Below the pieces are notes generated by a model. The model was not told the origin of the DNA, searched no databases, and saw only the letters and a program-made list of their open reading frames with translations. Of a stretch of 33,443 nucleotides of DNA, positions 1 to 27,537 are shown in pieces. The DNA is from Chiloscyllium plagiosum (lineage: Eukaryota): assembly GCF_004010195.1 (NCBI RefSeq), contig NC_057754.1, forward strand, positions 5,569,107-5,602,549, given 5' to 3'. How positions within the stretch are numbered: the first letter of the stretch is position 1; the number at the start of each line of letters is the position of its first letter. Made by a program: the position numbers and the translations under genes.

Positions 1-110
1 CCCCCATCCGCGCCCCGCCCCCTCCCGCGCTCCGCCCCGCCCCCTCCAATCCTCCGCCCCGCCTACTCTCCGCCCCGCCCTCTCCAACCATCCGCGGTGG
101 ATTGGGGGGA
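1..110. other. GC-rich low-complexity tract with repeated CCGCCC (GC-box-like) and CCAAT/ATTGG words
   Basis: Several CCGCCC words in 1-80, CCAAT at 46-50 and ATTGG at 101-105. The tract is cut by the window edge, so promoter versus simple repeat cannot be decided. Confidence 0.3.
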
Positions 111-376
111 GATGGGGAACAATAAAGTTTCGTTGAAAACGGCCAAGGCGGAACAATAAAGCCTTGTTGAAGAGGCCTAGCAGGAAAGGCTTCTGTTGCC
201 CAACTTAATGAGTATTTTTCTGAAATGTGGCCCTGGGCACGGCCTGGGTTTAATTCAAATCAGATCCTCTGCAAATCCAAACCCAACTCAAGCTCAATTT
301 GTTGCCTCCTGCGCCTTGGCCAAGCTGAGATTTGATTTTAGCGTAAATTCTCACTCATGGCCAACCATTGGCGCTT

Positions 377-525
377 CATAAGAAAATGGAGCAGGAGTAG
401 GTCGTGCAGCCCTTCGAGCCTGCTCCGCCATTCAATAAGGATGTTCCACTTACCCGAGCTCTCACCCTAACCCTTAGCTCCTTTATTGTTCAAAAGGATA
501 TCTATCTTAGCTTTAAAAACGTTAA
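377..525 (-). mobile_element. CR1-type LINE 3' end fragment
   Basis: Reverse complement matches the tail at 25606-25810 (atagat..ttgaac..taaagga..taagg..gggtaagtgga...gcaggctcga.gg...cctactcctgctcc). Confidence 0.6.
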
Positions 526-1032
526 CTGAAGGGACGTCGACTGAAGTTTTCGCAGAAACATCTTAAAGAAAAGGGGCATGTTCTGTTCATAATGACGGTC
601 GCGAGGTGGCAAGCGGATGCCACACCATGATCTCCGCGTTCACCGGGAATACATATCCCCGCACAGCCAGATCCCGCCTGTGTGCAGTTGCCACCCCGTC
701 TCTCGTCACGCTGGGGTATGCAGCCCTTTACCCCTTGTTCTAGCAAAGGCAAAGCGAGATGGATAACGCCCAAGCAGAAAGAAAACAGCTCACCGCAGGA
801 CTTCCAAACGATCGAGATCTGAAACAGCCAAAAAAGAAGAAACAGAGCATTTTGGAGGGATTCAGCCAGGTTTAGTGCCGCTTCTGTGGAAGGCAGGCAC
901 CAAATGGACATGGAACGTTAACTCTGCCACAGTCTCCACCGACGCTGCCAGGCTTCCTCAATCCCCCACTCAGAAGGTCAAACCAAGAAATACTTGGAAT
1001 GGCATAATGTGCAGGCTAGGTGCATCATCCAT

Positions 1033-1402: not shown

Positions 1403-1577
1403 ACACACATCAGTCCTTCTGATCTTCAAGTGTTTGGCTGTAGAAGTCCAGTACGATCGATGTGTTCACAGAATCTGAACACTGCAGAAAGAGGCCATTC
1501 AGCCCATCAAGTCTGCAGTTACCCTCCGAAAAGGGTCCCGCTCAGATCTGTTCCCCCACCCTATCTGGATGGCTCAG

Positions 1578-2362: not shown

Positions 2363-3251
2363 NNNNNNNNNNNNNNNNNNNNNNNNNNNNNNNNNNNNNN
2401 NNNNNNNNNNNNNNNNNNNNNNNNNNNNNNNNNNNNNNNNNNNNNNNNNNNNNNNNNNNNNNNNNNNNNNNNNNNNNNNNNNNNNNNNNNNNNNNNNNNN
2501 NNNNNNNNNNNNNNNNNNNNNNNNNNNNNNNNNNNNNNNNNNNNNNNNNNNNNNNNNNNNNNNNNNNNNNNNNNNNNNNNNNNNNNNNNNNNNNNNNNNN
2601 NNNNNNNNNNNNNNNNNNNNNNNNNNNNNNNNNNNNNNNNNNNNNNNNNNNNNNNNNNNNNNNNNNNNNNNNNNNNNNNNNNNNNNNNNNNNNNNNNNNN
2701 NNNNNNNNNNNNNNNNNNNNNNNNNNNNNNNNNNNNNNNNNNNNNNNNNNNNNNNNNNNNNNNNNNNNNNNNNNNNNNNNNNNNNNNNNNNNNNNNNNNN
2801 NNNNNNNNNNNNNNNNNNNNNNNNNNNNNNNNNNNNNNNNNNNNNNNNNNNNNNNNNNNNNNNNNNNNNNNNNNNNNNNNNNNNNNNNNNNNNNNNNNNN
2901 NNNNNNNNNNNNNNNNNNNNNNNNNNNNNNNNNNNNNNNNNNNNNNNNNNNNNNNNNNNNNNNNNNNNNNNNNNNNNNNNNNNNNNNNNNNNNNNNNNNN
3001 NNNNNNNNNNNNNNNNNNNNNNNNNNNNNNNNNNNNNNNNNNNNNNNNNNNNNNNNNNNNNNNNNNNNNNNNNNNNNNNNNNNNNNNNNNNNNNNNNNNN
3101 NNNNNNNNNNNNNNNNNNNNNNNNNNNNNNNNNNNNNNNNNNNNNNNNNNNNNNNNNNNNNNNNNNNNNNNNNNNNNNNNNNNNNNNNNNNNNNNNNNNN
3201 NNNNNNNNNNNNNNNNNNNNNNNNNNNNNNNNNNNNNNNNNNNNNNNNNNN

Positions 3252-3452: not shown

Positions 3453-3623
3453 CCGAGATAACGCAGAGTCTGCAAGCTGAAAAGACGACTCTTACCTCCT
3501 CTCACTTGTGTGGGCGAAAAGACAGAAAAACCCCAGAAAGTTTAAAAGAAAATAATTTTAATGAGAGAAAGCTTGGATCCATGATTGAAGTGAAGAACAA
3601 GTTGTTTGACAGACAGAAGCGTG

Positions 3624-4281: not shown

Positions 4282-5042
4282 TGTTATGGACAGGGTAAAC
4301 TCTCCTGCTTAATTTAAAACCAGCAACACACAAAAGATTTATCCCATGCAGTAATCTGTAAAAAATTTGAGTGGCCAAGGAGTATTTAAAGTAAAAATCA
4401 ACAACTTTATTTCTTAACATCCAAGTCTCAGAGTTTTTAATCTGCCACCTGCTTCATTCTACACTGTGCCCTCTTTAGGCGCTGTTTGGCTAACTCACCT
4501 CCTGAATTTAATCTCTCCCTCACCTCCAATACATAATCTGGTCCTGTCAATTTTTCTTTAATTAATTTCAAAGGACCTCTCACTTCATGACCGACTATTA
4601 ACTTGAAGGGAGTGAACTGAGTGGATTCATTTGGGGCATCTCTAACGGCAAACAATACGAATGGGATACCTTTATCCCAATCATTCAGGGATTCCTGACA
4701 CTAAACTCAGAACATGGTCTTAAGGTCTGTTGCCACCTTTCCAAAGCTCCCTGGGATTCAGGATGATACACACTAGATATATAGCGTTGTATACCTAAGC
4801 TATCCATAACCTCCTTAAACAGCCCAGCAGTAAAATTTGACCCTTGGTCCGACTGAATCTCTCTAGGTAGCCCATTCCTCCACGTGAATTCTTACCATCT
4901 CGGGAAGCGAGCTTTTTTTTTTTAACTCCTCCAGCAGAATAATCTCTCTTAAAGCCTCAAATGTGCTATCTATTTTCAAAGCACGCACACATCAATCAAA
5001 ATGACTACGTTTAATTCTTTCAAACTCAACGTAAGTCTGACC
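4282..5042 (-). mobile_element. Internally deleted Gypsy-type LTR retrotransposon relic (gag piece, integrase core, possible LTR end)
   Basis: Minus-strand translation: GQTYVEFERIKRSHFD..ALKIDSTFEALREIILLEE..VRIHVEE (gag-like, 5042 to about 4875) abuts GLPREIQSDQGSNF..YHPESQGALER (D-35-E spacing) and DWDKGIPFVLFAVRDAPNESTQFTPF. It contains stops and frameshifts, and ends with AATAAA and ..CATAACA near 4282. Confidence 0.85.
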
Positions 5043-5542
5043 NNNNNNNNNNNNNNNNNNNNNNNNNNNNNNNNNNNNNNNNNNNNNNNNNNNNNNNNNN
5101 NNNNNNNNNNNNNNNNNNNNNNNNNNNNNNNNNNNNNNNNNNNNNNNNNNNNNNNNNNNNNNNNNNNNNNNNNNNNNNNNNNNNNNNNNNNNNNNNNNNN
5201 NNNNNNNNNNNNNNNNNNNNNNNNNNNNNNNNNNNNNNNNNNNNNNNNNNNNNNNNNNNNNNNNNNNNNNNNNNNNNNNNNNNNNNNNNNNNNNNNNNNN
5301 NNNNNNNNNNNNNNNNNNNNNNNNNNNNNNNNNNNNNNNNNNNNNNNNNNNNNNNNNNNNNNNNNNNNNNNNNNNNNNNNNNNNNNNNNNNNNNNNNNNN
5401 NNNNNNNNNNNNNNNNNNNNNNNNNNNNNNNNNNNNNNNNNNNNNNNNNNNNNNNNNNNNNNNNNNNNNNNNNNNNNNNNNNNNNNNNNNNNNNNNNNNN
5501 NNNNNNNNNNNNNNNNNNNNNNNNNNNNNNNNNNNNNNNNNN

Positions 5543-5836: not shown

Positions 5837-5903
5837 AATAGTGCAGAGTTTCTCCTCCATGAACTCCTTAGCTTGCTGTGTGCTGAAGTAATTCTCCTGT
5901 AGC
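5837..5903 (-). CDS. BEGAIN/TJAP1-family gene, coding exon 4 (67 nt): (R)LQENYFSTQQAKEFMEEKLCTI
   Basis: Acceptor tgtcccacag, donor gtaagt, phase 2 to 0. Continues EKFW-R from the previous exon and resembles recalled TJAP1 RLQNSYTASQRTNQELEDKLHTL and BEGAIN RIQSNYMALQRINQELEDKL. Not in the ORF track. Confidence 0.88.
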
Positions 5904-6193
5904 CTGTGGGACAAAGCACATTGAGGGTTTCAGCTTTCTCCACCCCCTGGCCACGTTCTCGACTGAATAGTTCTGAGACTTTGAGACTGAGTCGCTGTGT
6001 CTCTCATTTATCGCAGAGTGTTCAAGTTTATTTTCTGGACTTAAAACGTCTTAGAACCTCACAAGACCTTTCAACGTAGGTATGCTCATAGTGAGGAGAT
6101 GCTAGAATGTTCTCCCTGAGCGTCTGGAGTGAGCCACTTGCCTCACTAGAACTACCCACAAACTAAACAAGAAAGTTGGCTCAGTGTACAAGG

Positions 6194-7010
6194 GGACCTT
6201 GATCAGATGGGCCGAAGGGTGGCAGATGGAAGTTTAATTTAGATAAATGTGAGGTGCTACATTTTGGAAAGGGAAGACAGGACAGGACTTATACACTTAA
6301 TGGAAGAGTGTTGCTGAACAAAGAGACCTTGGAGTGCAGGTTCATAGCTCCTTGAAAGTGGAGTTGCAGGTAGATAGGGTAGTGAAGAAGGCGTTTGGTA
6401 TGCTTTCCGTTATTGGTCAGAGCATTCAGTATAGGGGTTGGGAGGGTCATGTTGCGGCTGTACAGGGCATTGGTTAGGCCACTGTTGGAGTACTCATTCC
6501 TGCTACAGGAAGGATGTTGTGAAACTTGAAAGGGTTCAGAAAAGATTAACAAGGATGTTGCCAGGGTTGGAGGGTTTGAGCTACAGGGAGAGGCTGAACA
6601 GGCTGGGGCTGTTTTCCCTGGAGTGTCAGAGGTTGAGGGGTGACTTTATCGAGGTCTATAAAATCATGAGGGGCATGAAATAGACAAGGTCTTTTCCCTG
6701 GGGTTGGGACATCCAGAACTAGAGGGGCATAGGTTTAGGATGAGAGGGGGAAAGATATAAAAGGGACCTAAGGGGGAACTTTTTCTCACAGAGGGTGGTC
6801 CGTGTGTGGAATGAGCTGCCAGAGGAAATGGTGGAGGCTGGTACAATGACAACATTTAAAAGGCATCTGATTGGGTACATGAATAGGAAGGATTTAGAGG
6901 GATATGGGCCATGTGCTGGCAAATGGGACTAGATTAGGTTGGGATATCTGGTCGGCATGGACGGGTTGGGCCGAAGGGTCAGTCTGTGCTGTACATCTCT
7001 AGGAGTCTAA
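6194..7010 (+). mobile_element. HER1/CR1 LINE, 5'-truncated
   Basis: YRKDVVKLERVQKRLTRMLPGLEGLSYRERLNRLGLFSLE..RLRGD.IEVYKIMRG, a typical CR1 ORF2 C-terminus, plus 3' tail. Confidence 0.92.
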
Positions 7011-7078
7011 GGCATATGAGGGATACAAAACATAAAAATGGACTGTGGAAGCTTCTGTAGATACACAAAAGGGAACAG

Positions 7079-7292
7079 GGAGGAAGTGAGGACCGCAGAT
7101 GCTGGAGATCAGAGTCGAGAGTGTGGTGCTGGAAAAGCACATCCGGTCCAACAGCATCCGAGGAGCAACGTTTCGGGCATAAGCTCTTCATCAGGAATAA
7201 AGACCTCGTTCCTGATGAAGAGCTCCTGCCCGAAACATCGACTCTCCTGCTCCTCGGATGCTGCCTGACTGGATGTGCTTTTCCAGCACCAT
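7079..7292. mobile_element. Palindromic Penelope-like insertion with two opposed hammerhead-like cores
   Basis: Inverted arms around 7199-7207. Minus core CTGATGAAGAGCTTATGCCCGAAACGTT, plus core CTGATGAAGAGCTCCTGCCCGAAACATC. AGGGAACAG occurs on both flanks. Confidence 0.75.
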
Positions 7293-7413
7293 GGCATAAC
7301 AGGGAACAGTTTGGTCAAGACAAATGGAGGGTTCCAATACAGGCACGGGGGGGGGGGGGAATCGAGAAGTGGCAGTGACTCAAGAGCGGGGGATTACCTC
7401 CCTCCTCCCTCAC

Positions 7414-7575
7414 CTCCAGAACTTCTCCCTGAGGTCCTCCATGTCCACCCGAGCTCTCTGCAGCTCGGACTCCAGGTGCCCATGGCTGGCCTTGAAGTCC
7501 ATGTCCATCCTCTCCATTTGGTAGGTGGCATGGAGTAGGTGTCTCTGTAGATTTTCATTCTCCTCTTGTAAAGAC
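7414..7575 (-). CDS. BEGAIN/TJAP1-family gene, coding exon 3 (162 nt): (K)SLQEENENLQRHLLHATYQMERMDMDFKASHGHLESELQRARVDMEDLREKFW(R)
   Basis: Pyrimidine tract plus taag acceptor, gtgagg donor, phase 2 to 2. Coiled coil resembling recalled BEGAIN ALQEQKGELRKRLSYTTHKLEKLETEFDSTRHYLEIELRRAQEELEK and TJAP1 LLQEENEELRRRL. Confidence 0.9.
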
Positions 7576-7896
7576 CTTAAGCGTGGTTTGCAGGGGGGAG
7601 GCGGGGGGAAAGACACAGGAGCTGGGGTTAGCCGGTTCCCGCTCTCGAACCGTGACTGTGTTATCAAAGCGCAGACCGCGCCCGTGGAGAATGCTTGCAA
7701 CTCAGTCCATGTTAGTGGCACAGAACTGTACGGTCAGTTTAAGGTGCAGGCGGTGATGATTGGTTGCTCACTCGCCTGAACTCTCACCTCTTGGGACACA
7801 ACAGCCTGGGGTCCAGGGATAGAGCACAGTCTGACCCAGTGCTGCAGGGCCAGAGGGGTTGGGTCTCGATCGGGGCATTTAATATGCCCGTGACTT

Positions 7897-8692
7897 GTAG
7901 AGTCACACAGCACGGAAACAGACCCTGCGGCCCAACTCGTCCGTGCTGACCCATAATCCCCAAACTAACCTAGTCCCAGCTGCCTGCCCCTGGCCCATAT
8001 CCCTCCAAACTCTTTCCTATTCATGTCCTTATCCAAACATCTTGTAACTGTCCCCACATCCACCACTTCCTCTGGAAGTTCATTCCACACGCGAACCACC
8101 CACTGTGTAAAAATTGCCACCCTCCCCATGTCTTTTTTTTTAATCTTTCTCCTCTCACCTTAAAAGTGTGCCCCCTAATCTTGAAAACCCCTACCCTAGA
8201 GAAAAGACACCTGTCATTCACCTTATCCAAGCCTCTCATGATTTTGTAAACCTCTATAAGGTCACCCCTCAGTCTCCTACGCTCCAGTGAAAAAAGTCCC
8301 GGCCTATCCAGCCTCTCAAACCCTCTATTCCCGGCAACATCCTGATAAATCTCTTCTGAACCCCTCTCCAGTTTAATAACATCCTTCCTGTAACAGGGCA
8401 ACCAGAACTGGACACAGTGATCCAGACGAGGCCTCACCAATGTCCTGTACAACCCCAACATGACGTCCTAACTCCTACACTCAAAGGTCTGAGTAATGAA
8501 GGCAAGCGTGCTAAACACCTTCTTAACCCCCCCATCTATGTGATGCAAACATCATAGAATGATGTACCTGAACCCCTAGGTCTCGCTCAGTACCCTGGGC
8601 ACTGCTTTTAATTGTAGAAGTCCTGCCCTTGTGTGTTTTACCAAGATGCAATATCTCGCATTTATCCAAATTAAACACCACGCCTCAACCCA
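7897..8692 (-). mobile_element. HER1/CR1 LINE, 5'-truncated
   Basis: ORF 8021-8461: LYRTLVRPRLDHCVQFW.PCYRKDVIKLER..GLFSLERRRLRGDLIEVYKIMRGLDKV; tail at the left end. Confidence 0.92.
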
Positions 8693-8780
8693 GTTCTGAG
8701 AATTTTTATATTTAAGTCTGAAAGTGAGTGGTGGTAGGAAAAGACAATAGCGGCTTTAAAAATAAAAGGTGAACACTTAC

Positions 8781-8809
8781 TTCAGATGATTGGCATCTAC
8801 AAGCAGCTC
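8781..8809 (-). CDS. BEGAIN/TJAP1-family gene, coding micro-exon 2 (29 nt): ELLVDANHL(K)
   Basis: Strong acceptor tttttgtctctttttatttag and donor gtaagt. Phase 0 to 2 exactly bridges exon 1 and exon 3. Resembles recalled TJAP1 EPLTDAERMK. Confidence 0.85.
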
Positions 8810-9277
8810 CTAAATAAAAAGAGACAAAAAAAAATTGGTGATGGGACAAATTTTCTCAGCCTGGGAGTTCAAACATGATGGATATTTTTTCCTCTTGACT
8901 AACGACCTCTTCTATAATTCCACAAAAACATGAAAAGAGATTGCAAACTGTTCTAAAAGTGATACTTTCTCGTTTAAATTCAAAACGGACGACGTTGGAC
9001 TAAAACATGGCTGCTGCTGGTCACACGGTGCAAGTTGACTACATTTCCAGAAAGTTCCAAAGAGCTTGGACACAATCCTCCTGGGGATCACATGTCCTGG
9101 CGTGGTGTGGCCATTGTGTTGTCAAAGACCAGTTGACAATATGATTCCGCCCCCCTCCCCCCCCCAGCAGAATCTGGTAAATCAACATGAGGTTTTGATT
9201 CTAATTATGCCCGAAAAGGCAATAATAGCCCGTGATTTACCTCACACAACAAACCTGAGTTTGTCTGTAAACACAGA

Positions 9278-9520
9278 ACAGGTGGCAGTGTGCACGGCCC
9301 AGACCGTCACCGAAGCCAACCTCCCATCCATGGACTCCATTTACATGTCGCGGAAAGGCCGCTAACGCCATTAAATACCCCTCCCGCCCCGGTAAGGCCT
9401 CTCCTACGGTCTCTTACGTCAGGCAGACGATGCAGAAGCCTGAACACACGCACCAACAGGTTCAACAACAGCTTCTTCCCCGCTGTTATTAGACCGATGA
9501 ATGGACCTATCTAACTTTAA
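9278..9520 (+). mobile_element. Rex1/Babar-like LINE 3' fragment
   Basis: SGRRCRSLNTRTNRFNNSFFPAVIR.MN terminal motif typical of Rex1-type RT ORFs. Confidence 0.7.
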
Positions 9521-9577
9521 TCAAATGCTAATCTCCTGTGTAACCTCGTCAAAGCAGCTTACGATCTGTAAAACCGA

Positions 9578-9686
9578 AAAGAATGCTGTAAATCAGAAAC
9601 AAAAACAGAAGTGGCTGGAAAAGCTCAGCGGGTCTGGCAGCATCGGTGGAGAGAAATCAGAGTGAACGTTTCAGGTCCAGTGACCC
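9578..9686 (-). mobile_element. Arm of a second Penelope-like family, truncated before the full ribozyme core
   Basis: GCTGGAAAAGCTCAGC.GGTCTGGCAGCATC..GAGAAATCAGAGT.AACGTTTC.GGTCCAGTGACCC; related decayed copies near 911-960, 19520-19650, 22510-22575 and 29310-29445. Confidence 0.55.
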
Positions 9687-9699
9687 GCGCCCCAGAACA

Positions 9700-10325
9700 T
9701 GGGAAATCTGGGGGATGGGGAAATCAGGGAGGGAGGTCAGGGGAGGGGGAGGTCGGGGGTCGGGGGGGGGGGAGATCTGGGGGAGNNNNNNNNNNNNNNN
9801 NNNNNNNNNNNNNNNNNNNNNNNNNNNNNNNNNNNNNNNNNNNNNNNNNNNNNNNNNNNNNNNNNNNNNNNNNNNNNNNNNNNNNNNNNNNNNNNNNNNN
9901 NNNNNNNNNNNNNNNNNNNNNNNNNNNNNNNNNNNNNNNNNNNNNNNNNNNNNNNNNNNNNNNNNNNNNNNNNNNNNNNNNNNNNNNNNNNNNNNNNNNN
10001 NNNNNNNNNNNNNNNNNNNNNNNNNNNNNNNNNNNNNNNNNNNNNNNNNNNNNNNNNNNNNNNNNNNNNNNNNNNNNNNNNNNNNNNNNNNNNNNNNNNN
10101 NNNNNNNNNNNNNNNNNNNNNNNNNNNNNNNNNNNNNNNNNNNNNNNNNNNNNNNNNNNNNNNNNNNNNNNNNNNNNNNNNNNNNNNNNNNNNNNNNNNN
10201 NNNNNNNNNNNNNNNNNNNNNNNNNNNNNNNNNNNNNNNNNNNNNNNNNNNNNNNGGGGGAGATCAGGGGGGTATCGGGGGAGGGGAGGATCGGGGAGGG
10301 GAGGATCGGGGGGAGGGGTAGCGGG
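9700..10325. repeat. G-rich low-complexity repeat (GGGGAGATC-like) spanning a gap
   Basis: G-runs separated by AGATC/AGGATC on both sides of gap 9786-10255. Confidence 0.7.
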
Positions 10326-10380
10326 CGGTGGTCAGAATGGCACTTGCTCCGCGGTCTCAGCAAGCCCAGTGTCCATTCAC

Positions 10381-11112
10381 CTTGTGGACCCCTCCTCCGC
10401 GGGCCTTCCCCTCGACAGCCCAGGGTGATGCCTCCGCCTCTTCCTCCTCCTCATCCCCGTCCCCGTGCTGGGGGCTGCGCCCAGACTCGGTGCAGTGTGT
10501 GTAGGCTCCGGGCCCGGTGCTGGTCTCCAGGCTAGAGGCCGGGCCTGCGGCGAGGGGCCGAGCGTCCTCGGTGTCTCCGTTCCCCGGCGGCCCCCGCGGC
10601 CGGGCATTGAAGAAATCGAGCCTCGCCGGGCTGAGCAACTGAACGGTGATTTCATCCAGGAACCGGGAGAAGTCGGCTCTCCGCTGCTGCCGGCCCCCTC
10701 TCAGGCTCCCCTGGGCCTGGGCCTGGGCCTGGGCCTGGGCCTGGGACTGGGCTGCCCCTGAGCTGCAGGCTCCTGGCTCCCTTCCCCAGGCTTTGAGCCC
10801 TAGAGCAGGGCCCTCCACGGACCTGGCCCTCCTCAGGGAGGAGGGGCCCTGGGCTCGCTGTCCCTCCCCCCGGGAGGGGACCCGTCTGCCCCCAGGCGGG
10901 GAGGAGGAACAGGCCCTCACATCCCCGCAAGACCTCGAGAATGGGCTCCCATTGACCCCAGAGCCTGCCCCCTCGTCCCCCGAGGACCAGGAGCTGGAGG
11001 AGGAGAGGGGCCTGCGGCTTCTCCCCTGGGCCACCTCCTCCCTTTCTCTCCCCAGTCTCCGGGGGCTGAAGAACTTCTCCATCACCTTCAGCTTCCCGGC
11101 TGGCACCTCCAT
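10381..11112 (-). CDS. BEGAIN/TJAP1-family gene, first coding exon (732 nt, 244 aa): MEVPAGKLKVMEKFFSPRRLG...ADFSRFLDEITVQLLSPARLDFF...GGGVHK
   Basis: ATG in GGGATGG context with an in-frame TAA four codons upstream; GC-rich open frame; donor AAG|gtgaat in phase 0, compatible with the 29-nt exon. The link to the family rests on splicing phase, not on similarity of this exon. Confidence 0.75.
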
Positions 11113-12382
11113 CCCCAAGGGTTACTGACCCTTACCCTCCTCTCCCACTCCCCCTCTCACACCCTCCTNNNNNNNNNNNNNNNNNNNNNNNNNNNNNNNN
11201 NNNNNNNNNNNNNNNNNNNNNNNNNNNNNNNNNNNNNNNNNNNNNNNNNNNNNNNNNNNNNNNNNNNNNNNNNNNNNNNNNNNNNNNNNNNNNNNNNNNN
11301 NNNNNNNNNNNNNNNNNNNNNNNNNNNNNNNNNNNNNNNNNNNNNNNNNNNNNNNNNNNNNNNNNNNNNNNNNNNNNNNNNNNNNNNNNNNNNNNNNNNN
11401 NNNNNNNNNNNNNNNNNNNNNNNNNNNNNNNNNNNNNNNNNNNNNNNNNNNNNNNNNNNNNNNNNNNNNNNNNNNNNNNNNNNNNNNNNNNNNNNNNNNN
11501 NNNNNNNNNNNNNNNNNNNNNNNNNNNNNNNNNNNNNNNNNNNNNNNNNNNNNNNNNNNNNNNNNNNNNNNNNNNNNNNNNNNNNNNNNNNNNNNNNNNN
11601 NNNNNNNNNNNNNCCCACCTCTCCACTCCCTCGGGTCAGACCGTCTCCCTTGTCAGAAATGGAAGATCCTCTGAACACAGACTGTCTGACACAGCCCACA
11701 CTGTACTCCCTCAAATGCCTCCGAATATGACCCTTTCCCCCTCTCTCTGTCTCTCTCTTGCTCTCCACAAGCTGGCAGTTAATTGGCGATCACTCCAAAT
11801 GGACCGCACTTAGCACAGACAGCACACATTCAAAACGCCGCAGAATGTAACCGTCTCCCCCCAACCCCGGCTCCACGAGTTTGGCAGGCTGTTGTGGCTC
11901 ACTCAAAGTCCAAATGGGTCTCTCTCAATGCTTTCTCAAATACCACATAATATAGTCCTTTCCCCTCTCTCTATATCTTCCCACCAGCAACTGCCAATCA
12001 TTCGAGGTTAGAATGGATCTCACCCAGCTCCTCAGACGACACAGGACATAACCCTTTCCCCCCTTCTCTTTCTCTGCATCTGTCTGTCTCTATCTGTCTG
12101 TCTATCTCTCCCTCTCTCTTCCACCCAGCAGGCAGTTGTCGATTGTCAGACTGGGAATGGGATTGGGCCACAGAACTGCTGCCAATACCAATCGCCCACA
12201 ATTCGGGAGCTCAGTCGAGCGTGGGAGTGTCACCGTGTCCAGATAAACTCAGGTCCAGGAGAGGGCAGGGAGGCTTTAACCACCACGGCTGTGTGTTCCT
12301 GCAGGGAGGCTGGGAATCCTGCTTACTCAGCTCCTGATTTCCCCCAATTGTTTACAAGAGGCACGAGGCAGGAGGGTGAGGG

Positions 12383-13114: not shown

Positions 13115-13704
13115 GGCACCGTGGTCAGCGCTGCTGTCTCACGGCGCCTGGGACCCGGGTTCGATCCCACCCTCAGGCAACCCCAATGTGCGGGATTTGC
13201 CCATGTTGGCATGTTACCTCCCGCAGTCCAAAGATGTGCAGGTTAGGGTGAATTGGCCGTGCTAAATTGTCCCATAGTGCCCAGGGATGTGCAGGTTAGG
13301 GTGGATTGGCTGTGCTAAATTGTCCCCGTAGTGCCCAGGGGGGGTAAACATAGGGTGGATTGGCCGTGCTAAATTGTCTCGTAGTGCCCAGCGATGTCCA
13401 GGTTAGGGTGGATTGGCCGTGCTAAATTGTCCCCGTAGTGCCCAGGGATGTGCAGGTTAGGGTGGATTGGCCGTGCTAAATTGTCCCATAGTGCCCAGGG
13501 ATGGGCAGGTTAGGGTGGATTGGCCGTGCTAAATTGTCCCATAATGTCTAGGGATGTGCAGGTTAGGGTGGATTGGTCATCGGAAATGCAGGGTTACGGG
13601 GATAGATTTGGAGCTCAGTCTGGGTGGGATGCTGTTCGGTGGTTCGGTGTGGATCTGATGGGCTGAATGGCCTGCTTCCACACTGTAAGGTTTCTGTTAT
13701 TCTA
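13115..13704 (+). mobile_element. HE1 SINE with about 6.5 internal 53-bp units
   Basis: B box GGTTCGATCCC, units from about 13233 to 13580, HE1 tail GGCCTGCTTCCACACTGTAAGG. Confidence 0.9.
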
Positions 13705-15281: not shown

Positions 15282-17033
15282 GTGTGCAGGTTAGGGTGGA
15301 TTGGCCATGCTAAATTGTCCCATAGTGTCCAGGGATGTACTGGTTAGGGTGGATTGGCCGTGCTAAATTGTCCCCTAGTGCCCAGGGATGTGCAGGTTCG
15401 GGTGGATTGGCCGTGCTAAATTGTCCCATAGTGCCCAGGGATGTGCAGGTTAGGGTGGATTGGCCGTGCTAAATTGTCCCATAGTGTCCAGGGATGTGCA
15501 GGTTAGGGTGGATTGGCCGTGCTAAATTGTCCCATAGTGCCCAGGGATGTGCAGGTTAGGGTGGATTGGCCGTGCTAAATTGTCCCATAGTGCCCAGGGA
15601 TGTGCAGGTTAGGGTGGATTGGCCGTGCTAAATTGTCCCATAGTGCCCAGGGATGTGCAGGTTAGGGTGGATTGGCCGTGCTAAATTGTCCCATAGTGCC
15701 CAGGGATGTGCAGGTTAGGGTGGATTGGCCGTGCTAAATTGTCCCATAGTGCCCAGGGATGTGCAGGTTAGGGTGGATTGGCCGTGCTAAATTGTCCCAT
15801 AGTGCCCAGGGATGTGCAGGTTAGGGTGGATTGGCCGTGCTAAATTGTCCCATAGTGCCCAGGGATGTGCAGGTTAGGGTGGATTGGCCGTGCTAAATTG
15901 TCCCATAGTGCCCAGGGATGTGCAGGTTAGGGTGGATTGGCCGTGCTAAATTGTCCCATAGTGCCCAGGGATGTGCAGGTTAGGGTGGATTGGCCGTGCT
16001 AAATTGTCCCATAGTGCCCAGGGATGTGCAGGTTAGGGTGGATTGGCCGTGCTAAATTGTCCCATAGTGCCCAGGGATGTGCAGGTTAGGGTGGATTGGC
16101 CGTGCTAAATTGTCCCATAGTGCCCAGGGATGTGCAGGTTAGGGTGGATTGGCCGTGCTAAATTGTCCCATAGTGCCCAGGGATGTGCAGGTTAGGGTGG
16201 ATTGGCCGTGCTAAATTGTCCCATAGTGCCCAGGGATGTGCAGGTTAGGGTGGATTGGCCGTGCTAAATTGTCCCATAGTGCCCAGGGATGTGCAGGTTA
16301 GGGTGGATTGGCCGTGCTAAATTGTCCCATAGTGCCCAGGGATGTGCAGGTTAGGGTGGATTGGCCGTGCTAAATTGTCCCATAGTGCCCAGGGATGTGC
16401 AGGTTAGGGTGGATTGGCCGTGCTAAATTGTCCCATAGTGCCCAGGGATGTGCAGGTTAGGGTGGATTGGCCGTGCTAAATTGTCCCATAGTGCCCAGGG
16501 ATGTGCAGGTTAGGGTGGATTGGCCGTGCTAAATTGTCCCATAGTGCCCAGGGATGTGCAGGTTAGGGTGGATTGGCCGTGCTAAATTGTCCCATAGTGC
16601 CCAGGGATGTGCAGGTTAGGGTGGATTGGCCGTGCTAAATTGTCCCATAGTGCCCAGGGATGTGCAGGTTAGGGTGGATTGGCCGTGCTAAATTGTCCCA
16701 TAGTGCCCAGGGATGTGCAGGTTAGGGTGGATTGGCCGTGCTAAATTGTCCCATAGTGCCCAGGGATGTGCAGGTTAGGGTGGATTGGCCGTGCTAAATT
16801 GTCCCATAGTGCCCAGGGATGTGCAGGTTAGGGTGGATTGGCCGTGCTAAATTGTCCCATAGTGCCCAGGGATGTGCAGGTTAGGGTGGATTGGCCGTGC
16901 TAAATTGTCCCATAGTGCCCAGGGATGTGCAGGTTAGGGTGGATTGGCCGTGCTAAATTGTCCCATAGTGCCCAGGGATGTGCAGGTTAGGGTGGATTGG
17001 CCGTGCTAAATTGTCCCATAGTGCCCAGGGATG
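15282..17033 (+). repeat. 53-bp SINE-derived minisatellite, at least 33 units
   Basis: Unit GGGATGTGCAGGTTAGGGTGGATTGGCCGTGCTAAATTGTCCCATAGTGCCCA (53 nt); variants seen only in the first four or so units; ends at a gap. Confidence 0.97.
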
Positions 17034-17891: not shown

Positions 17892-18432
17892 GCAGAGGGA
17901 GTCTGGAGAGGAATGCAGTGGTGTTTGTCGAGGTTCGTCCCGAGCAGCGCCATGACGTGGGACTCCGTGCTCTACGGTCTGTTCCCCGGGGCGCACACCG
18001 AGACGAACATCAACTGTGCCTGGAGGATCATCAACTCGGTGAAGGACGCTCTCTGGGTGGTCCGAAACTTGCTGATCTTCCAGCTGAAGGAGTTGACCCC
18101 GACTGAGTGTTGCAGACTGGCACATTCCAAGGTCCAGGACTACGTGTTGAGGGACGCGCTGAAGCTTGGGGCAGCTGCCGCCAAGGCGCGGTGGGGAAAG
18201 ACCACTGTGTAAAGTCTGCCTGCCTAACGAAGAACAGGGGGCCCGCGCAGTCATTTGGGCTCTGCTGACGCCTCAGCTAATTATATGGGCATATGATCAA
18301 AAAAATGTACAGACCTGTGAAAAAATGATAAATTCTGATCTCTGTATGTAAATGTTTACATACGTATGGCATGACCAATTGTACAGACCATCAAATTATT
18401 TATGAATAAAGTATATTTTTGGGAAAAAAAAA
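17892..18432 (+). mobile_element. Tx1/L1-clade LINE 3' end: ORF2 C-terminus, 3' UTR and poly(A)
   Basis: Open frame VWRGMQWCLSRF..VLYGLFPG..AWRIINSVKDALWVVRNLLIFQ..RWGKTTV with stop at 18210-18212. The W..RN..IF motif is typical of L1/Tx1 ORF2 ends. AATAAA at 18405-18410, A9 at 18424-18432. Confidence 0.82.
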
Positions 18433-24771: not shown

Positions 24772-24852
24772 TCACTCCACAAGCAAATCAAAGCGTTCCG
24801 CTTCTTCGAAGCTAGCGTTCATCTGAGCGGCCCACTCGTCCAACTCGGACTT
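24772..24852 (-). CDS. CDCA5: Sororin, last coding exon: KSELDEWAAQMNASFEEAERFDLLVE*
   Basis: Acceptor ttgttttcccag, phase 0, 81 nt ending in TGA. Close to the recalled human C-terminus KTELDEWAAAMNAEFEAAEQFDLLVE. Confidence 0.97.
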   Translation of the reverse strand, partial: KSELDEWAAQMNASFEEAERFDLLVE

Positions 24853-25605
24853 CTGGGAAAACAACAGGGAAAATAGGGAAGTGAGGGGCTGGGAAGCACA
24901 TTGGATGACAGTTAGGGGTTACATGGACCTCTGGGCTGCTCCCGCCAAAGATGTGTTGAGTAGAGGCTTTAGCATGCCCCATCCAACTCAATGTACATGC
25001 TGTGGGCTCTCGGCATTTCCAGGCGCTCTCTGGAAAACTGGCATGGATTTACGGCCCTGATGCCAGGACCACTCCTTGACTAAATTATTGCTGTGATACC
25101 CCCCTGCTGAAGGGCAACAGAACTTGGTTCCGAGTCGAGCAGGGGCCCTCCCACTCAACACAAAAGCAGCTGGGACGAGCCCTATCCCTATACAACGTCC
25201 TAGGAAGCACCAAATCCCAAACTAACATCAGTCAGTGGGCACCCTGCACAGCAGGGAGACAGAGGACAGCAAGTGTCCATCAAGTGAGCGATGAGCATTT
25301 TTAAAAACAAAACAAAACAGTTCCCGTAAAGTAGACATCGCTAGCTAGGCTATGACATTTCCTGCCCACCCCTCAGGAAAAGATGGTGGGCAGCTGCTTT
25401 CAGCTTCTGTGAGCCACTGAACATTGTGGGAAGAATTCCTAAAAATGTTTCCTGTCCGCCAACAAAGTACATCTTGTGCCGAATGCAAGGATGACGCACA
25501 TGCGTTGCTCAGTGTGTTCTCGGTCCAGCGCAGGACGTCGCGTACCGGCTGTCAGTGACACCTCATGACAGACGGGAACGGGTAAATGTAGAACAGGAAG
25601 GGGCC

Positions 25606-25810
25606 GGGGTTGGGAATCTGTGAAATTCCCTGCCCATGAGGCTACCTCGTTGAATGTTTTTAAGGCAAAGATGGATAGATTTTTGAACAGTAAAGGAATT
25701 AAAGGTTATGGAGAGCGGGTGGGTAAGTGGAGCTGAGCCAGAAAAGATCAGCCATGATCCGATTGAATGGAAGGGCAGGCTCGAGGGTCCAGACGGCCTA
25801 TTCCTGCTCC
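25606..25810 (+). mobile_element. CR1-type LINE 3' fragment
   Basis: W NSLP-like remnant and tail GAATGG..GCAGGCTCGAGGG..GGCCTATTCCTGCTCC. Confidence 0.7.
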
Positions 25811-25939
25811 TCGCTCTCCTGCTCGGAATTGCAGAAGCCAATTTTCTCTCAGCAAGCTCCCAAATGCAGTCACATGATGACAACCAGACACATCTGCCTG
25901 CAAGGCTAGGGGATGGACAGGATACTGGGTGGAAGTCTA

Positions 25940-26290
25940 GTAGCACGGTGGCTCAATGGTTAGCACTGCTGCCTCACTGCACTAGGGACCCGGGTTCAAT
26001 TCAGGCCTCAGGCAACTGTGCAGAGGCCACACAGACAGACATTCTCCCAGTGTGTGTGTGGGATTTCCTCCGGGTGCTCTGGTTTCCTCCCATAGTGCCC
26101 AGGGATGTGCAGGTTAGGGTGGATTGGCCGTGCTAAATTGTCCCATAGTGTCCAGGGATGTGCAGGTGAGGGACATTCATCAGGGATAAACGTAGAGTAA
26201 TGAAGGTAGGGTCTGGGTGGGTTAATCTTTGGAGGGTCGGTGTAGACTTGTTGAGCCAAATGGCCTGTTTCCACACTGTTGTGATCTATA
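25940..26290 (+). mobile_element. HE1 SINE with repeated internal unit
   Basis: A and B boxes intact; 53-bp unit at about 26090-26170; HE1 tail. Confidence 0.88.
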
Positions 26291-26399
26291 AAAAAGTCCC
26301 CTCCTTGTTGCCAAAATGTTTTGTCAAGGGGCATTTTACATCTGACCTGCCTCTGAACCCTGGCACCTTCTCGATGGGAAGGTCAGGCAAATCACCAGC

Positions 26400-26950
26400 A
26401 CTGGGGCTCTATTTCTGGAGGGGCGAGAGGGGATGGCAGTCAGTCAGTCAGGGAAGGGGGAGCGCANNNNNNNNNNNNNNNNNNNNNNNNNNNNNNNNNN
26501 NNNNNNNNNNNNNNNNNNNNNNNNNNNNNNNNNNNNNNNNNNNNNNNNNNNNNNNNNNNNNNNNNNNNNNNNNNNNNNNNNNNNNNNNNNNNNNNNNNNN
26601 NNNNNNNNNNNNNNNNNNNNNNNNNNNNNNNNNNNNNNNNNNNNNNNNNNNNNNNNNNNNNNNNNNNNNNNNNNNNNNNNNNNNNNNNNNNNNNNNNNNN
26701 NNNNNNNNNNNNNNNNNNNNNNNNNNNNNNNNNNNNNNNNNNNNNNNNNNNNNNNNNNNNNNNNNNNNNNNNNNNNNNNNNNNNNNNNNNNNNNNNNNNN
26801 NNNNNNNNNNNNNNNNNNNNNNNNNNNNNNNNNNNNNNNTGGGGACTCTATTGCTGGAGGGACGAGAGGGGATGGCAGTCAGTCAGTCAGGGAAGGGGCA
26901 GCGCATGCCCAGAGGGAAAGGGGGGGGGAGCGCATGCCCAGAGGGCGCAG
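26400..26950. repeat. Intronic G-rich tandem repeat spanning a gap
   Basis: GGGG.CTCTATT.CTGGAGGG.CGAGAGGGGATGGCAGTCAGTCAGTCAGGGAAGGGG.AGCGCA occurs on both sides of gap 26467-26839. Confidence 0.75.
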
Positions 26951-26965
26951 CCTGTCTGGTCTCAC

Positions 26966-27403
26966 CTCGATCTGGGGGACTTTGCGTTTCTTCCTCTTCT
27001 CCTTGGCCACGGCCACGCCAGGGATGTTAAGGTCCAGCTGGGCGAGGGAGCCGGCGGCAAGGAGAGGCTTCTCCACTTCGGGGGTCAGGGGGCGTTTCAC
27101 TGGCGAGACGCCCGGTGCGGTGTCGCCGGCCAGGAGCCTGCCGAAGCCGAAGAGGGACCTGCGGGAGGCAGCCCCCTCTACCTCCCCGTTCGGCGTGGAG
27201 GTGTCCGAAGCCCCGCCGCCCACACTCGGGAGGTGGACGCCGTAGGGGCTCAGGCGGCTGTATGAGCGCCGCACCTTCTGTGACATCAGCGCGCCTCTCT
27301 CGGCGTCCTGGGCAGGGGGCGAGGCGCTGACCCGCGCCGCCTCTTGGTCGGCCACACTCGCCCAATCTCCGCCGGCGTTCTCCTTCACGGTCTTTGGGGA
27401 AAC
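26966..27403 (-). CDS. CDCA5: Sororin, large exon (438 nt): VSPKTVKENAG...QKVRRSYSRL...SLFGFGRLL...KEKRKKRKVPQIE
   Basis: Acceptor ttcccctttccag, donor gtgaga, phase 0 to 0. KEN box at 27377-27385, YSR at 27254-27262, FGF at 27143-27151, and a basic patch. Confidence 0.97.
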
Positions 27404-27537
27404 CTGGAAAGGGGAAAGCGAGAGTTTCAGCGCAACTGACGGCCGCGTTCGCGGTTAGGACATGGCTGAACGCAGAGCCCATCTGGGAGAAGGCAAGGTG
27501 CCATTCAGCCCCTCGATCCTGTTCTATCACTTCGAGC

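What the first reader, a model, noticed from the sequence alone, without database searches (positions are those of the whole stretch)
5837..11112. Probable third BEGAIN/TJAP1 paralogue next to CDCA5
Seen: four exons (732, 29, 162 and 67 nt) splice in frame into about 330 aa ending in a coiled coil that resembles both BEGAIN and TJAP1 but is clearly divergent from each. Established: human BEGAIN is on 14q32, TJAP1 on 6p21.1 and CDCA5 on 11q13.1; these regions share paralogue sets (KLC1/KLC4/KLC2, PPP2R5C/D/B). I know of no family member at human 11q13. Inference: an ohnologue from early vertebrate genome duplication, kept in sharks and lost in mammals. Both known members bind DLG-family MAGUK guanylate-kinase domains, so it may be an uncharacterised junction or synapse scaffold partner.
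Basis: partly seen in the sequence, partly recalled or inferred. Interest (0 to 1): 0.75.

Follow-up and report, generated by a model that had tools for sequence, protein, structure and literature searches.

The report
Unnamed third BEGAIN/TJAP1 family gene
This shark gene is a third, still unnamed sister of the scaffold genes BEGAIN and TJAP1; it is also found in rays, bony fish, a newt and a turtle, is apparently lost in mammals, and likely encodes a coiled-coil adaptor that gathers partners through short motifs, probably in neurons.

Summary
Observation confirmed: four minus-strand exons (732/29/162/67 nt, all AG/GT) give 330 aa without a stop. RefSeq already holds this as uncharacterised LOC122543995 (bamboo shark, Pfam BEGAIN_coil). 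The genome has its own TJAP1 (C3) and BEGAIN (C10). The protein sits in a third clade (100/99 support); AU tests reject grouping it with TJAP1 or with BEGAIN. Exon sizes match TJAP1, the neighbours are CDCA5, VPS51, TM7SF2 and MALAT1, and each of the three genes lies near a B56 gene, so an ohnologue is likely. An intact fifth exon lies on an unplaced contig that fits an assembly gap; the last exon was not found. Corrections: the gene is not shark-specific (rays, bichir, sturgeon, gar, bowfin, two teleost lineages including zebrafish si:ch211-276i12.4, newt, turtle). DLG binding is unsupported: the tail motifs shared by BEGAIN and TJAP1 are missing (0 of 23). Extra: long isoforms of all three paralogues share an N-terminal helix motif, often preceded by PP1-type SILK motifs. 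The zebrafish copy marks one rare neuron cluster. Loss in mammals was not tested directly. A new member of a known family.

The parts
10381..11112 (-). Exon 1 coding part (244 aa): mostly disordered, with conserved short motifs
   Evidence: start peptide shared with Mustelus, bichir, newt and turtle models; low pLDDT outside one helix
11062..11112 (-). N-terminal AGKLxVMEKFFxP motif, seen only in this clade
10813..10833 (-). Basic serine motif (RRARSVE here, RKAKSME in most orthologues; also in long TJAP1); predicted kinase site
   Evidence: the kinase-site reading is inference
10618..10671 (-). Conserved helix motif FSxFLDEITxxxLSPxxL, shared by long isoforms of all three paralogues
   Evidence: 7 invariant columns in 33 sequences chosen for having the long N-terminus; confident helix in both models
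8781..8809 (-). Exon 2 (29 nt), start of the BEGAIN_coil region
   Evidence: same size in TJAP1
7414..7575 (-). Exon 3 (162 nt), coiled coil
5837..5903 (-). Exon 4 (67 nt), coiled coil
5043..5542 (.). 500-N assembly gap, likely slot of unplaced contig G000:C6398 that carries exon 5 (108 nt, AG/GT, phase 0/0)
   Evidence: exon 72% identical to Mustelus 478-513; the contig ends in the same 53-bp tandem unit, in register with window 5543; placement inferred
1410..1481 (-). Last exon of the RefSeq model (23 aa): unlike what follows exon 4 in any relative, probably a modelling stop-gap
   Evidence: its 3' flank is a repeat, the exon itself is not repeated in 233 kb
24772..27404 (-). Neighbour: last two exons of CDCA5 (sororin)
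   Evidence: Pfam Sororin_middle and Sororin_C

Best explanation
The locus is a protein-coding third member of the BEGAIN/TJAP1 coiled-coil family, likely an ohnologue from the early vertebrate genome duplications, and it likely works as a non-enzymatic adaptor: a predicted 120-residue coiled coil would dimerise it, and short conserved motifs in its disordered arms would recruit partners. Shown: exon structure, family, separate clade, neighbours, range from sharks to turtle, loss of the BEGAIN/TJAP1 tail motifs and gain of its own. Inferred: origin by genome duplication (about 0.85), dimerisation through the coil (about 0.8), phospho-regulated docking through the N-terminal basic-serine motif and helix (about 0.5), a neuronal site of action (about 0.5, from one zebrafish data set). 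Binding to DLG guanylate-kinase domains as in BEGAIN or TJAP1 is possible but unsupported (about 0.25). In most bony-vertebrate copies SILK-type and K[VL]xF motifs suggest PP1 docking; the window's own protein has lost both.
For: Splicing and ORF. PF27583 on P0004 and on orthologues. Coil identity: 79 of 122 to Mustelus, 49 of 122 to this genome's TJAP1, 30 of 103 to its BEGAIN. Tree of 40 rows: 24-row clade at 100/99; AU p=0.0009 against window+TJAP1 and p=0.00002 against window+BEGAIN. Exons 29/162/67/108 nt identical in TJAP1; 67/108 in BEGAIN. B56 genes at C45:7.75 Mb, C3:136.2 Mb and C10:35.7 Mb, within about 2.2, 1.9 and 0.8 Mb of the three genes. AlphaFold of the Mustelus orthologue: helix 389-512 at pLDDT 95-98, 590 of 877 residues below 50. 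Zebrafish si:ch211-276i12.4 in 84.6% of cells of cluster OT25 against 0.2% elsewhere (PMC8869500 supplement 2).
Against: The last coding exon of the shark gene was not found in 233 kb around the window or genome-wide, so intactness of the 3' end is not shown. The tree has no outgroup, rests on 122 columns, and did not recover TJAP1 as one group (BEGAIN's long branch fell inside it without support); an older tandem or segmental origin is not excluded. No CCDC85 copy was found on C45. The coil evolves faster than TJAP1's, and the newt, turtle and one teleost lineage have eroded its first half. No partner was shown for any motif. The zebrafish copy with expression data belongs to a teleost duplicate lineage.
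Confidence: 0.8

Rival explanations
1. It is a divergent copy of TJAP1 (or BEGAIN) made within cartilaginous fish, or a mis-assigned orthologue.
For: The coil is closer to TJAP1 (40%) than to BEGAIN (29-34%); several databases label clade members 'TJAP1'; long TJAP1 shares the SILK and basic-serine motifs.
Against: TJAP1 and BEGAIN orthologues exist elsewhere in the genome; the clade includes ray-finned fish, newt and turtle; AU tests reject both groupings.
Confidence: 0.04
2. The family member is real, but the copy in this shark is truncated or decaying and ends with the 23-aa RefSeq exon.
For: The RefSeq model stops at 353 aa; the last exon was not found; the window protein has lost the SILK and K[VL]xF motifs.
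Against: Five exons have open frames and canonical splice sites; exon 5 is intact on an unplaced contig; three N gaps lie between exon 4 and VPS51; exon 1 is 92% identical and open in C. punctatum; Mustelus, Scyliorhinus, Pristis and Mobula have long tails.
Confidence: 0.1
3. It works like BEGAIN and TJAP1 as a DLG guanylate-kinase-domain ligand at junctions or synapses, here through the N-terminal basic-serine motif.
For: BEGAIN is listed as a DLG GK partner (PMC6989407 passage) and TJAP1 as a DLG yeast two-hybrid hit (PMC10820826 passage); GK domains bind phospho-peptides (listing); the basic-serine motif is conserved.
Against: The RKDSL tail motif common to both relatives is in 0 of 23 clade members, against 7 of 10 TJAP1 and 4 of 5 BEGAIN rows; that this tail is the GK ligand is my recollection-based inference, not read in a paper. 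TJAP1 itself is reported mainly at the Golgi (PMC13305319 passages).
Confidence: 0.25
4. The paralogue predates the vertebrate genome duplications (older tandem or segmental copy) and merely sits in a paralogous block.
For: It is further from both relatives than its tail would need to be, and lacks three motifs they share; no root was available.
Against: Identical coil exon sizes; one copy on each of three chromosomes that also carry B56 genes; no invertebrate protein among the named hits.
Confidence: 0.1

Closest known systems
TJAP1 / Pilt (PF27583 BEGAIN_coil + PF15453 Pilt)
   Same: Coil exons 29/162/67/108 nt; 40% coil identity to the shark TJAP1; long isoform with SILK, basic-serine and helix motifs.
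   Different: No Pilt domain, no CNLA, VLEKP or RKDSL motif (0 of 23); separate clade and chromosome; faster evolving.
BEGAIN (PF27583)
   Same: Coil exons 67/108 nt; helix motif in long isoforms of bird, fish and mammal models.
   Different: 29-34% coil identity; no shared tail; BEGAIN rows lack the SILK motif (0 of 4).
Zebrafish si:ch211-276i12.4 and unnamed RefSeq/GenBank models (LOC122543995, LOC144484286, LOC120369056; others mislabelled filaggrin, TJAP1 or LIM-domain protein A-like)
   Same: Same clade; these are the orthologues, and LOC122543995 is this very gene.
   Different: Annotated only as uncharacterised or under wrong names; the RefSeq model of this gene lacks exon 5 and the tail.

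Membership tests
BEGAIN/TJAP1 coil family (PF27583) | BEGAIN_coil domain | tested here: met
   Precomputed PF27583 on P0004 and orthologues; family name; the model is not in the local Pfam
BEGAIN/TJAP1 coil family (PF27583) | Shared coil exon structure | tested here: met
   29/162/67/108 nt as in TJAP1
TJAP1 orthologue | Groups with TJAP1 in a tree | tested here: not met
   AU p=0.0009
TJAP1 orthologue | Pilt domain PF15453 | tested here: not met
   Absent from 8 of 8 clade proteins scanned, present in 2 of 2 TJAP1; the window's own tail is missing from the assembly
BEGAIN orthologue | Groups with BEGAIN in a tree | tested here: not met
   AU p=0.00002
Vertebrate ohnologue | Lies in a paralogous chromosome block | tested here: met
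   B56 gene within 0.8-2.2 Mb of each of the three genes; only one marker family gave support, CCDC85 gave none on C45
Vertebrate ohnologue | Duplication after the split from invertebrate chordates and before the shark/bony-fish split | tested here: inconclusive
   Lower bound met (all three clades hold shark and bony-vertebrate rows); upper bound untested, no outgroup
DLG guanylate-kinase-domain ligands | Binds the GK domain | not testable with these tools
   No DLG sequence or phospho-peptide modelling available; shared tail motif absent
PP1-interacting proteins | SILK motif (S/G)IL(K/R) | tested here: inconclusive
   Consensus from PMC3937515; 11 of 19 clade rows and 7 of 7 long TJAP1 rows, but absent from the window protein
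PP1-interacting proteins | RVxF motif | tested here: inconclusive
   Strict form 5 of 19 clade rows and 2 of 7 TJAP1; with L or M allowed 16 of 19 and 7 of 7; absent from the window protein

The most novel reading that the evidence does not exclude
An unnamed vertebrate ohnologue, kept from sharks to turtles, doubled in teleosts and lost in mammals, is a scaffold of one rare neuron type (possibly retinal horizontal cells, since the zebrafish cluster it marks also shows rem1 and ompa). It exposes an overlooked N-terminal cassette of the whole BEGAIN/TJAP1 family (SILK motif, basic serine, K[VL]xF running into an invariant helix) that makes the long isoforms PP1-targeting adaptors.
Probability: 0.2. 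Interest if true: 0.65.

Novelty: new member of a known kind. Interest (0 to 1): 0.42.

Why it matters
It completes the gene family of two poorly understood scaffold proteins, corrects a set of wrong database names, and points to a tractable model: the zebrafish copy already marks one neuron cluster very sharply. The comparison also reveals a conserved N-terminal motif cassette in long BEGAIN and TJAP1 isoforms that gives a testable handle on what these proteins bind. Hidden ohnologues lost in mammals are a familiar kind of finding, which limits the surprise.

Tried and rejected
RNA evidence: no RNA holder was listed for window 7300-11160. Runs X3, X4 and X6 cover introns like exons, so they behave as DNA; raw RNA run X7 (about 2% read) had no depth on the exons; runs X7, X8, X1 and X2 on window 100-1020 gave only repeat matches or nothing. 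None of this is evidence on expression. Complex prediction of two coils of the Mustelus orthologue with a shark ARF6-type protein, GTP and Mg: no answer, score 0.00; not evidence either way. Docking of the N-terminal helix onto the coil: not supported, the helix is equally confident without the coil (different proteins). Fold searches: no Foldseek match; only generic coiled coils at Z up to 7.2. PDB sequence search: best E 0.04. ESM Atlas feature searches named no family; its structure search listed TJAP1 and BEGAIN clusters under its bar. Last exon: not found by tblastn or HMM in 233 kb nor by three genome-wide protein queries. Exon-like pieces at window 3496-3504 and 794-818 were considered as 3' exons and dropped: no Pfam match for the adjoining frames, no RNA. 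An upstream exon like that of turtle or TJAP1 was not found in the window. PF09311 proved not to be a kinesin-light-chain marker, so KLC paralogy is untested. Papers: searches for begain+tjap1 (2 papers, listing only), ch211-276i12.4 (1), begain+paralog+zebrafish+evolution (0), SILK+RVxF+tjap1 (0), begain+PP1+RVxF (0), begain/tjap1 with ohnologue terms (none of the 15 listed of 384 names either gene), horizontal cells+ompa+mdka (0). Supplements of PMC13450315, PMC12954441, PMC8405809 and PMC10662954 held no row for the gene names asked; the ohnologue database itself, bioRxiv supplements and subscription papers were not seen.
Full report
Observation. Splice sites are canonical and the joined frame is 330 aa with no stop. 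The window is G000:C45:5569107-5602549. A search with exon 3 returned one protein, RefSeq LOC122543995 of Chiloscyllium plagiosum (P0004), identical over the 330 aa, with 23 further residues and a precomputed PF27583 domain; PF27583 is BEGAIN_coil. So the gene is annotated but unnamed.

The rest of the gene. The RefSeq last exon (window 1481-1410) resembles nothing that follows exon 4 in relatives. A genome search with the Mustelus orthologue found the expected fifth exon on an unplaced 1,044-bp contig, C6398: 108 nt, AG/GT, phase 0 on both sides, 72% identical to Mustelus residues 478-513. The contig ends in a 53-bp tandem array that continues in register into window 5543, beside the 500-N gap; such arrays are common here, so the placement is likely, not proven. 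The large last exon was not found. VPS51 begins just left of the window, so the missing exon has to lie in a gap (5043-5542, 2363-3251 or the 1,050-N gap at the window's left edge) or be absent.

Paralogy. The genome holds TJAP1 at C3:134.3 Mb and BEGAIN at C10:36.5 Mb. TJAP1's coil exons are 29, 162, 67 and 108 nt, exactly as here; BEGAIN shares 67 and 108. Over the coil the window protein is 79 of 122 identical to Mustelus, 49 of 122 to shark TJAP1 and 30 of 103 to shark BEGAIN. A maximum-likelihood tree of 40 rows and 122 columns puts it in a 24-row clade at 100/99, among sharks and rays, with two teleost subgroups. Left out of the tree: 34 hits that were mostly unnamed (placed by BLAST only: 23 nearest TJAP1, 9 nearest teleost members of the new clade, 2 nearest BEGAIN), two low-complexity hits, exon-1-only proteins and isoform duplicates; five models that skip exon 5 were trimmed. 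Holding the window protein with TJAP1 or with BEGAIN is rejected (AU p=0.0009 and 0.00002). The tree is unrooted, and TJAP1 was not recovered as one group because BEGAIN's long branch fell inside it without support.

Range. Named members: Mustelus, Scyliorhinus, Pristis, Mobula, Polypterus, Acipenser, Amia, Lepisosteus, many teleosts including zebrafish si:ch211-276i12.4, the newt Pleurodeles and the turtle Mauremys. I named 30 of the 67 hits by look-up, plus the hits. No mammal or bird fell in the clade, though mammal and bird BEGAIN and TJAP1 were found. This fits loss in mammals but does not show it.

Synteny. Pfam and Rfam identify sororin (CDCA5) to the right, VPS51 and an ERG4/ERG24 gene (TM7SF2) to the left, and a mascRNA (MALAT1 3' end) about 55 kb right of exon 1. 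That these genes lie on human 11q13 is recalled knowledge. B56 genes lie about 2.2 Mb (C45), 1.9 Mb (C3) and 0.8 Mb (C10) from the three family members; which B56 paralogue is which was not tested. CCDC85 was found on C9 and C10 only. An ohnologue is the simplest reading.

Anatomy. AlphaFold of the 877-aa Mustelus orthologue gives one long helix (389-512, pLDDT 95-98), one confident helix at 180-210 and 590 residues below pLDDT 50. The clade lacks three motifs that TJAP1 and BEGAIN share after the coil: CNLA (0 of 23, against 10 of 10 and 4 of 5), VLEKP (0 of 23; 7 of 10; 3 of 5) and RKDSL (0 of 23; 7 of 10; 4 of 5). It has its own: PPxxFxD 16 of 23 and TAFxPW 11 of 23, both 0 of 15 in the relatives (some rows are partial models). 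Nine of 23 rows, teleosts of one subgroup plus newt and turtle, end in T-x-L, a class I PDZ-type end (class recalled); none of the four shark and ray models and none of the five rows of the zebrafish subgroup do. Exon 1 carries a cassette also found in long TJAP1 and BEGAIN models: a helix motif with seven invariant columns in 33 selected sequences, a basic serine motif upstream, and further upstream a SILK-type motif in 11 of 19 clade rows and 7 of 7 long TJAP1 rows but 0 of 4 BEGAIN rows. SILK and RVxF are PP1 docking motifs (PMC3937515 and PMC6406801, passages). The RVxF-like element here is strict in only 5 of 19 rows, and the window protein lacks both motifs.

Function. BEGAIN is a postsynaptic PSD-95 partner (PMC5066261, passages; PMC6989407, passage). 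TJAP1 was found with DLG and ARF6 by yeast two-hybrid, binds Mint PTB domains through its N-terminal peptide, has a predicted homodimeric coil and is called functionally almost unknown (PMC10820826, passages); it is needed for Golgi integrity (PMC13305319, title and passages). By homology the third member is best read as a coil-dimerised adaptor whose partners are set by short motifs. Because the tail differs, DLG binding cannot simply be transferred. The only expression datum is from zebrafish: si:ch211-276i12.4 is in 84.6% of cells of cluster OT25 against 0.2% of others (PMC8869500, table passage and supplement 2 rows). The authors call OT25 mature tectal neurons. The cluster also shows rem1 and ompa; rem1 is a horizontal-cell precursor marker (PMC10662954, passages) and one OMP paralogue is reported in horizontal cells (PMC4640105, passages; that it is ompa is recalled). 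A retinal horizontal-cell identity is my conjecture.

Novelty. Ten paper searches found no description of a third family member; the library lacks most subscription journals, and I could not see the ohnologue database of PMC13450315. The scan's own notes held nothing near this locus or on this sequence and one note on this genome's BEGAIN. Verdict: a real, annotated but unnamed ohnologue; a new member of a known family; interest moderate.

Noticed in passing
P0091, P0108, P0109, P0049, P0058, P0069 (long TJAP1 and BEGAIN models); shark TJAP1 long exon in L027: Long isoforms of TJAP1 (shark, fish, gecko, bird) and BEGAIN (fish, bird, mammals) carry the same N-terminal helix motif; all 7 long TJAP1 rows also have a SILK-type PP1 motif 72-80 residues upstream.
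   Followed up: partly
G000:C10:36.45-36.49 Mb (L028, L030, L038-L046): This shark's BEGAIN is strongly diverged: longest branch among BEGAIN rows, a coil exon of about 135 nt in place of 162, and no CNLA exon seen by tblastn.
   Followed up: partly
L016:3370-3426 (+): mascRNA/menRNA match (74 bits), i.e. the 3' end of a shark MALAT1-type RNA; a GC-rich stretch about 7 kb upstream may be its promoter, and exons that look like SCYL1 (recalled) follow.
   Followed up: no
window 15283-17033, 13233-13576, 1932-2362: A SINE with an internal 53-bp unit expanded into tandem arrays (33 copies at 99% identity); several assembly gaps begin in such arrays.
   Followed up: partly
G000:C41:11.65 Mb, C98478, C9:84.27 Mb (L051-L053): Three intact intronless ARF6-type genes, 86-91% identical to the first.
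   Followed up: no
window 3496-3504 and 794-818 (-): Two short stretches with good acceptor and donor sites between exon 4 and VPS51; no homology or RNA support found.
   Followed up: partly
window 1-260 and L003: GC-box-rich stretch directly upstream of VPS51, whose first exon probably lies in the 1,050-N gap; leaves little room for the 3' end of the gene studied.
   Followed up: partly
window 4330-5040 and 17892-18212: Broken retroelement-like coding remnants (integrase-like and LINE-like by recalled resemblance, not tested).
   Followed up: no
PMC8869500 cluster OT25: The 'tectal' cluster marked by the zebrafish orthologue shows rem1, ompa, mdka and opn9 and may be retinal horizontal cells.
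   Followed up: partly
P0012, P0103, P0038, P0060, P0011, P0018, P0027, P0008: Members of this clade are mislabelled in databases as filaggrin, LIM-domain protein A-like or TJAP1.
   Followed up: yes
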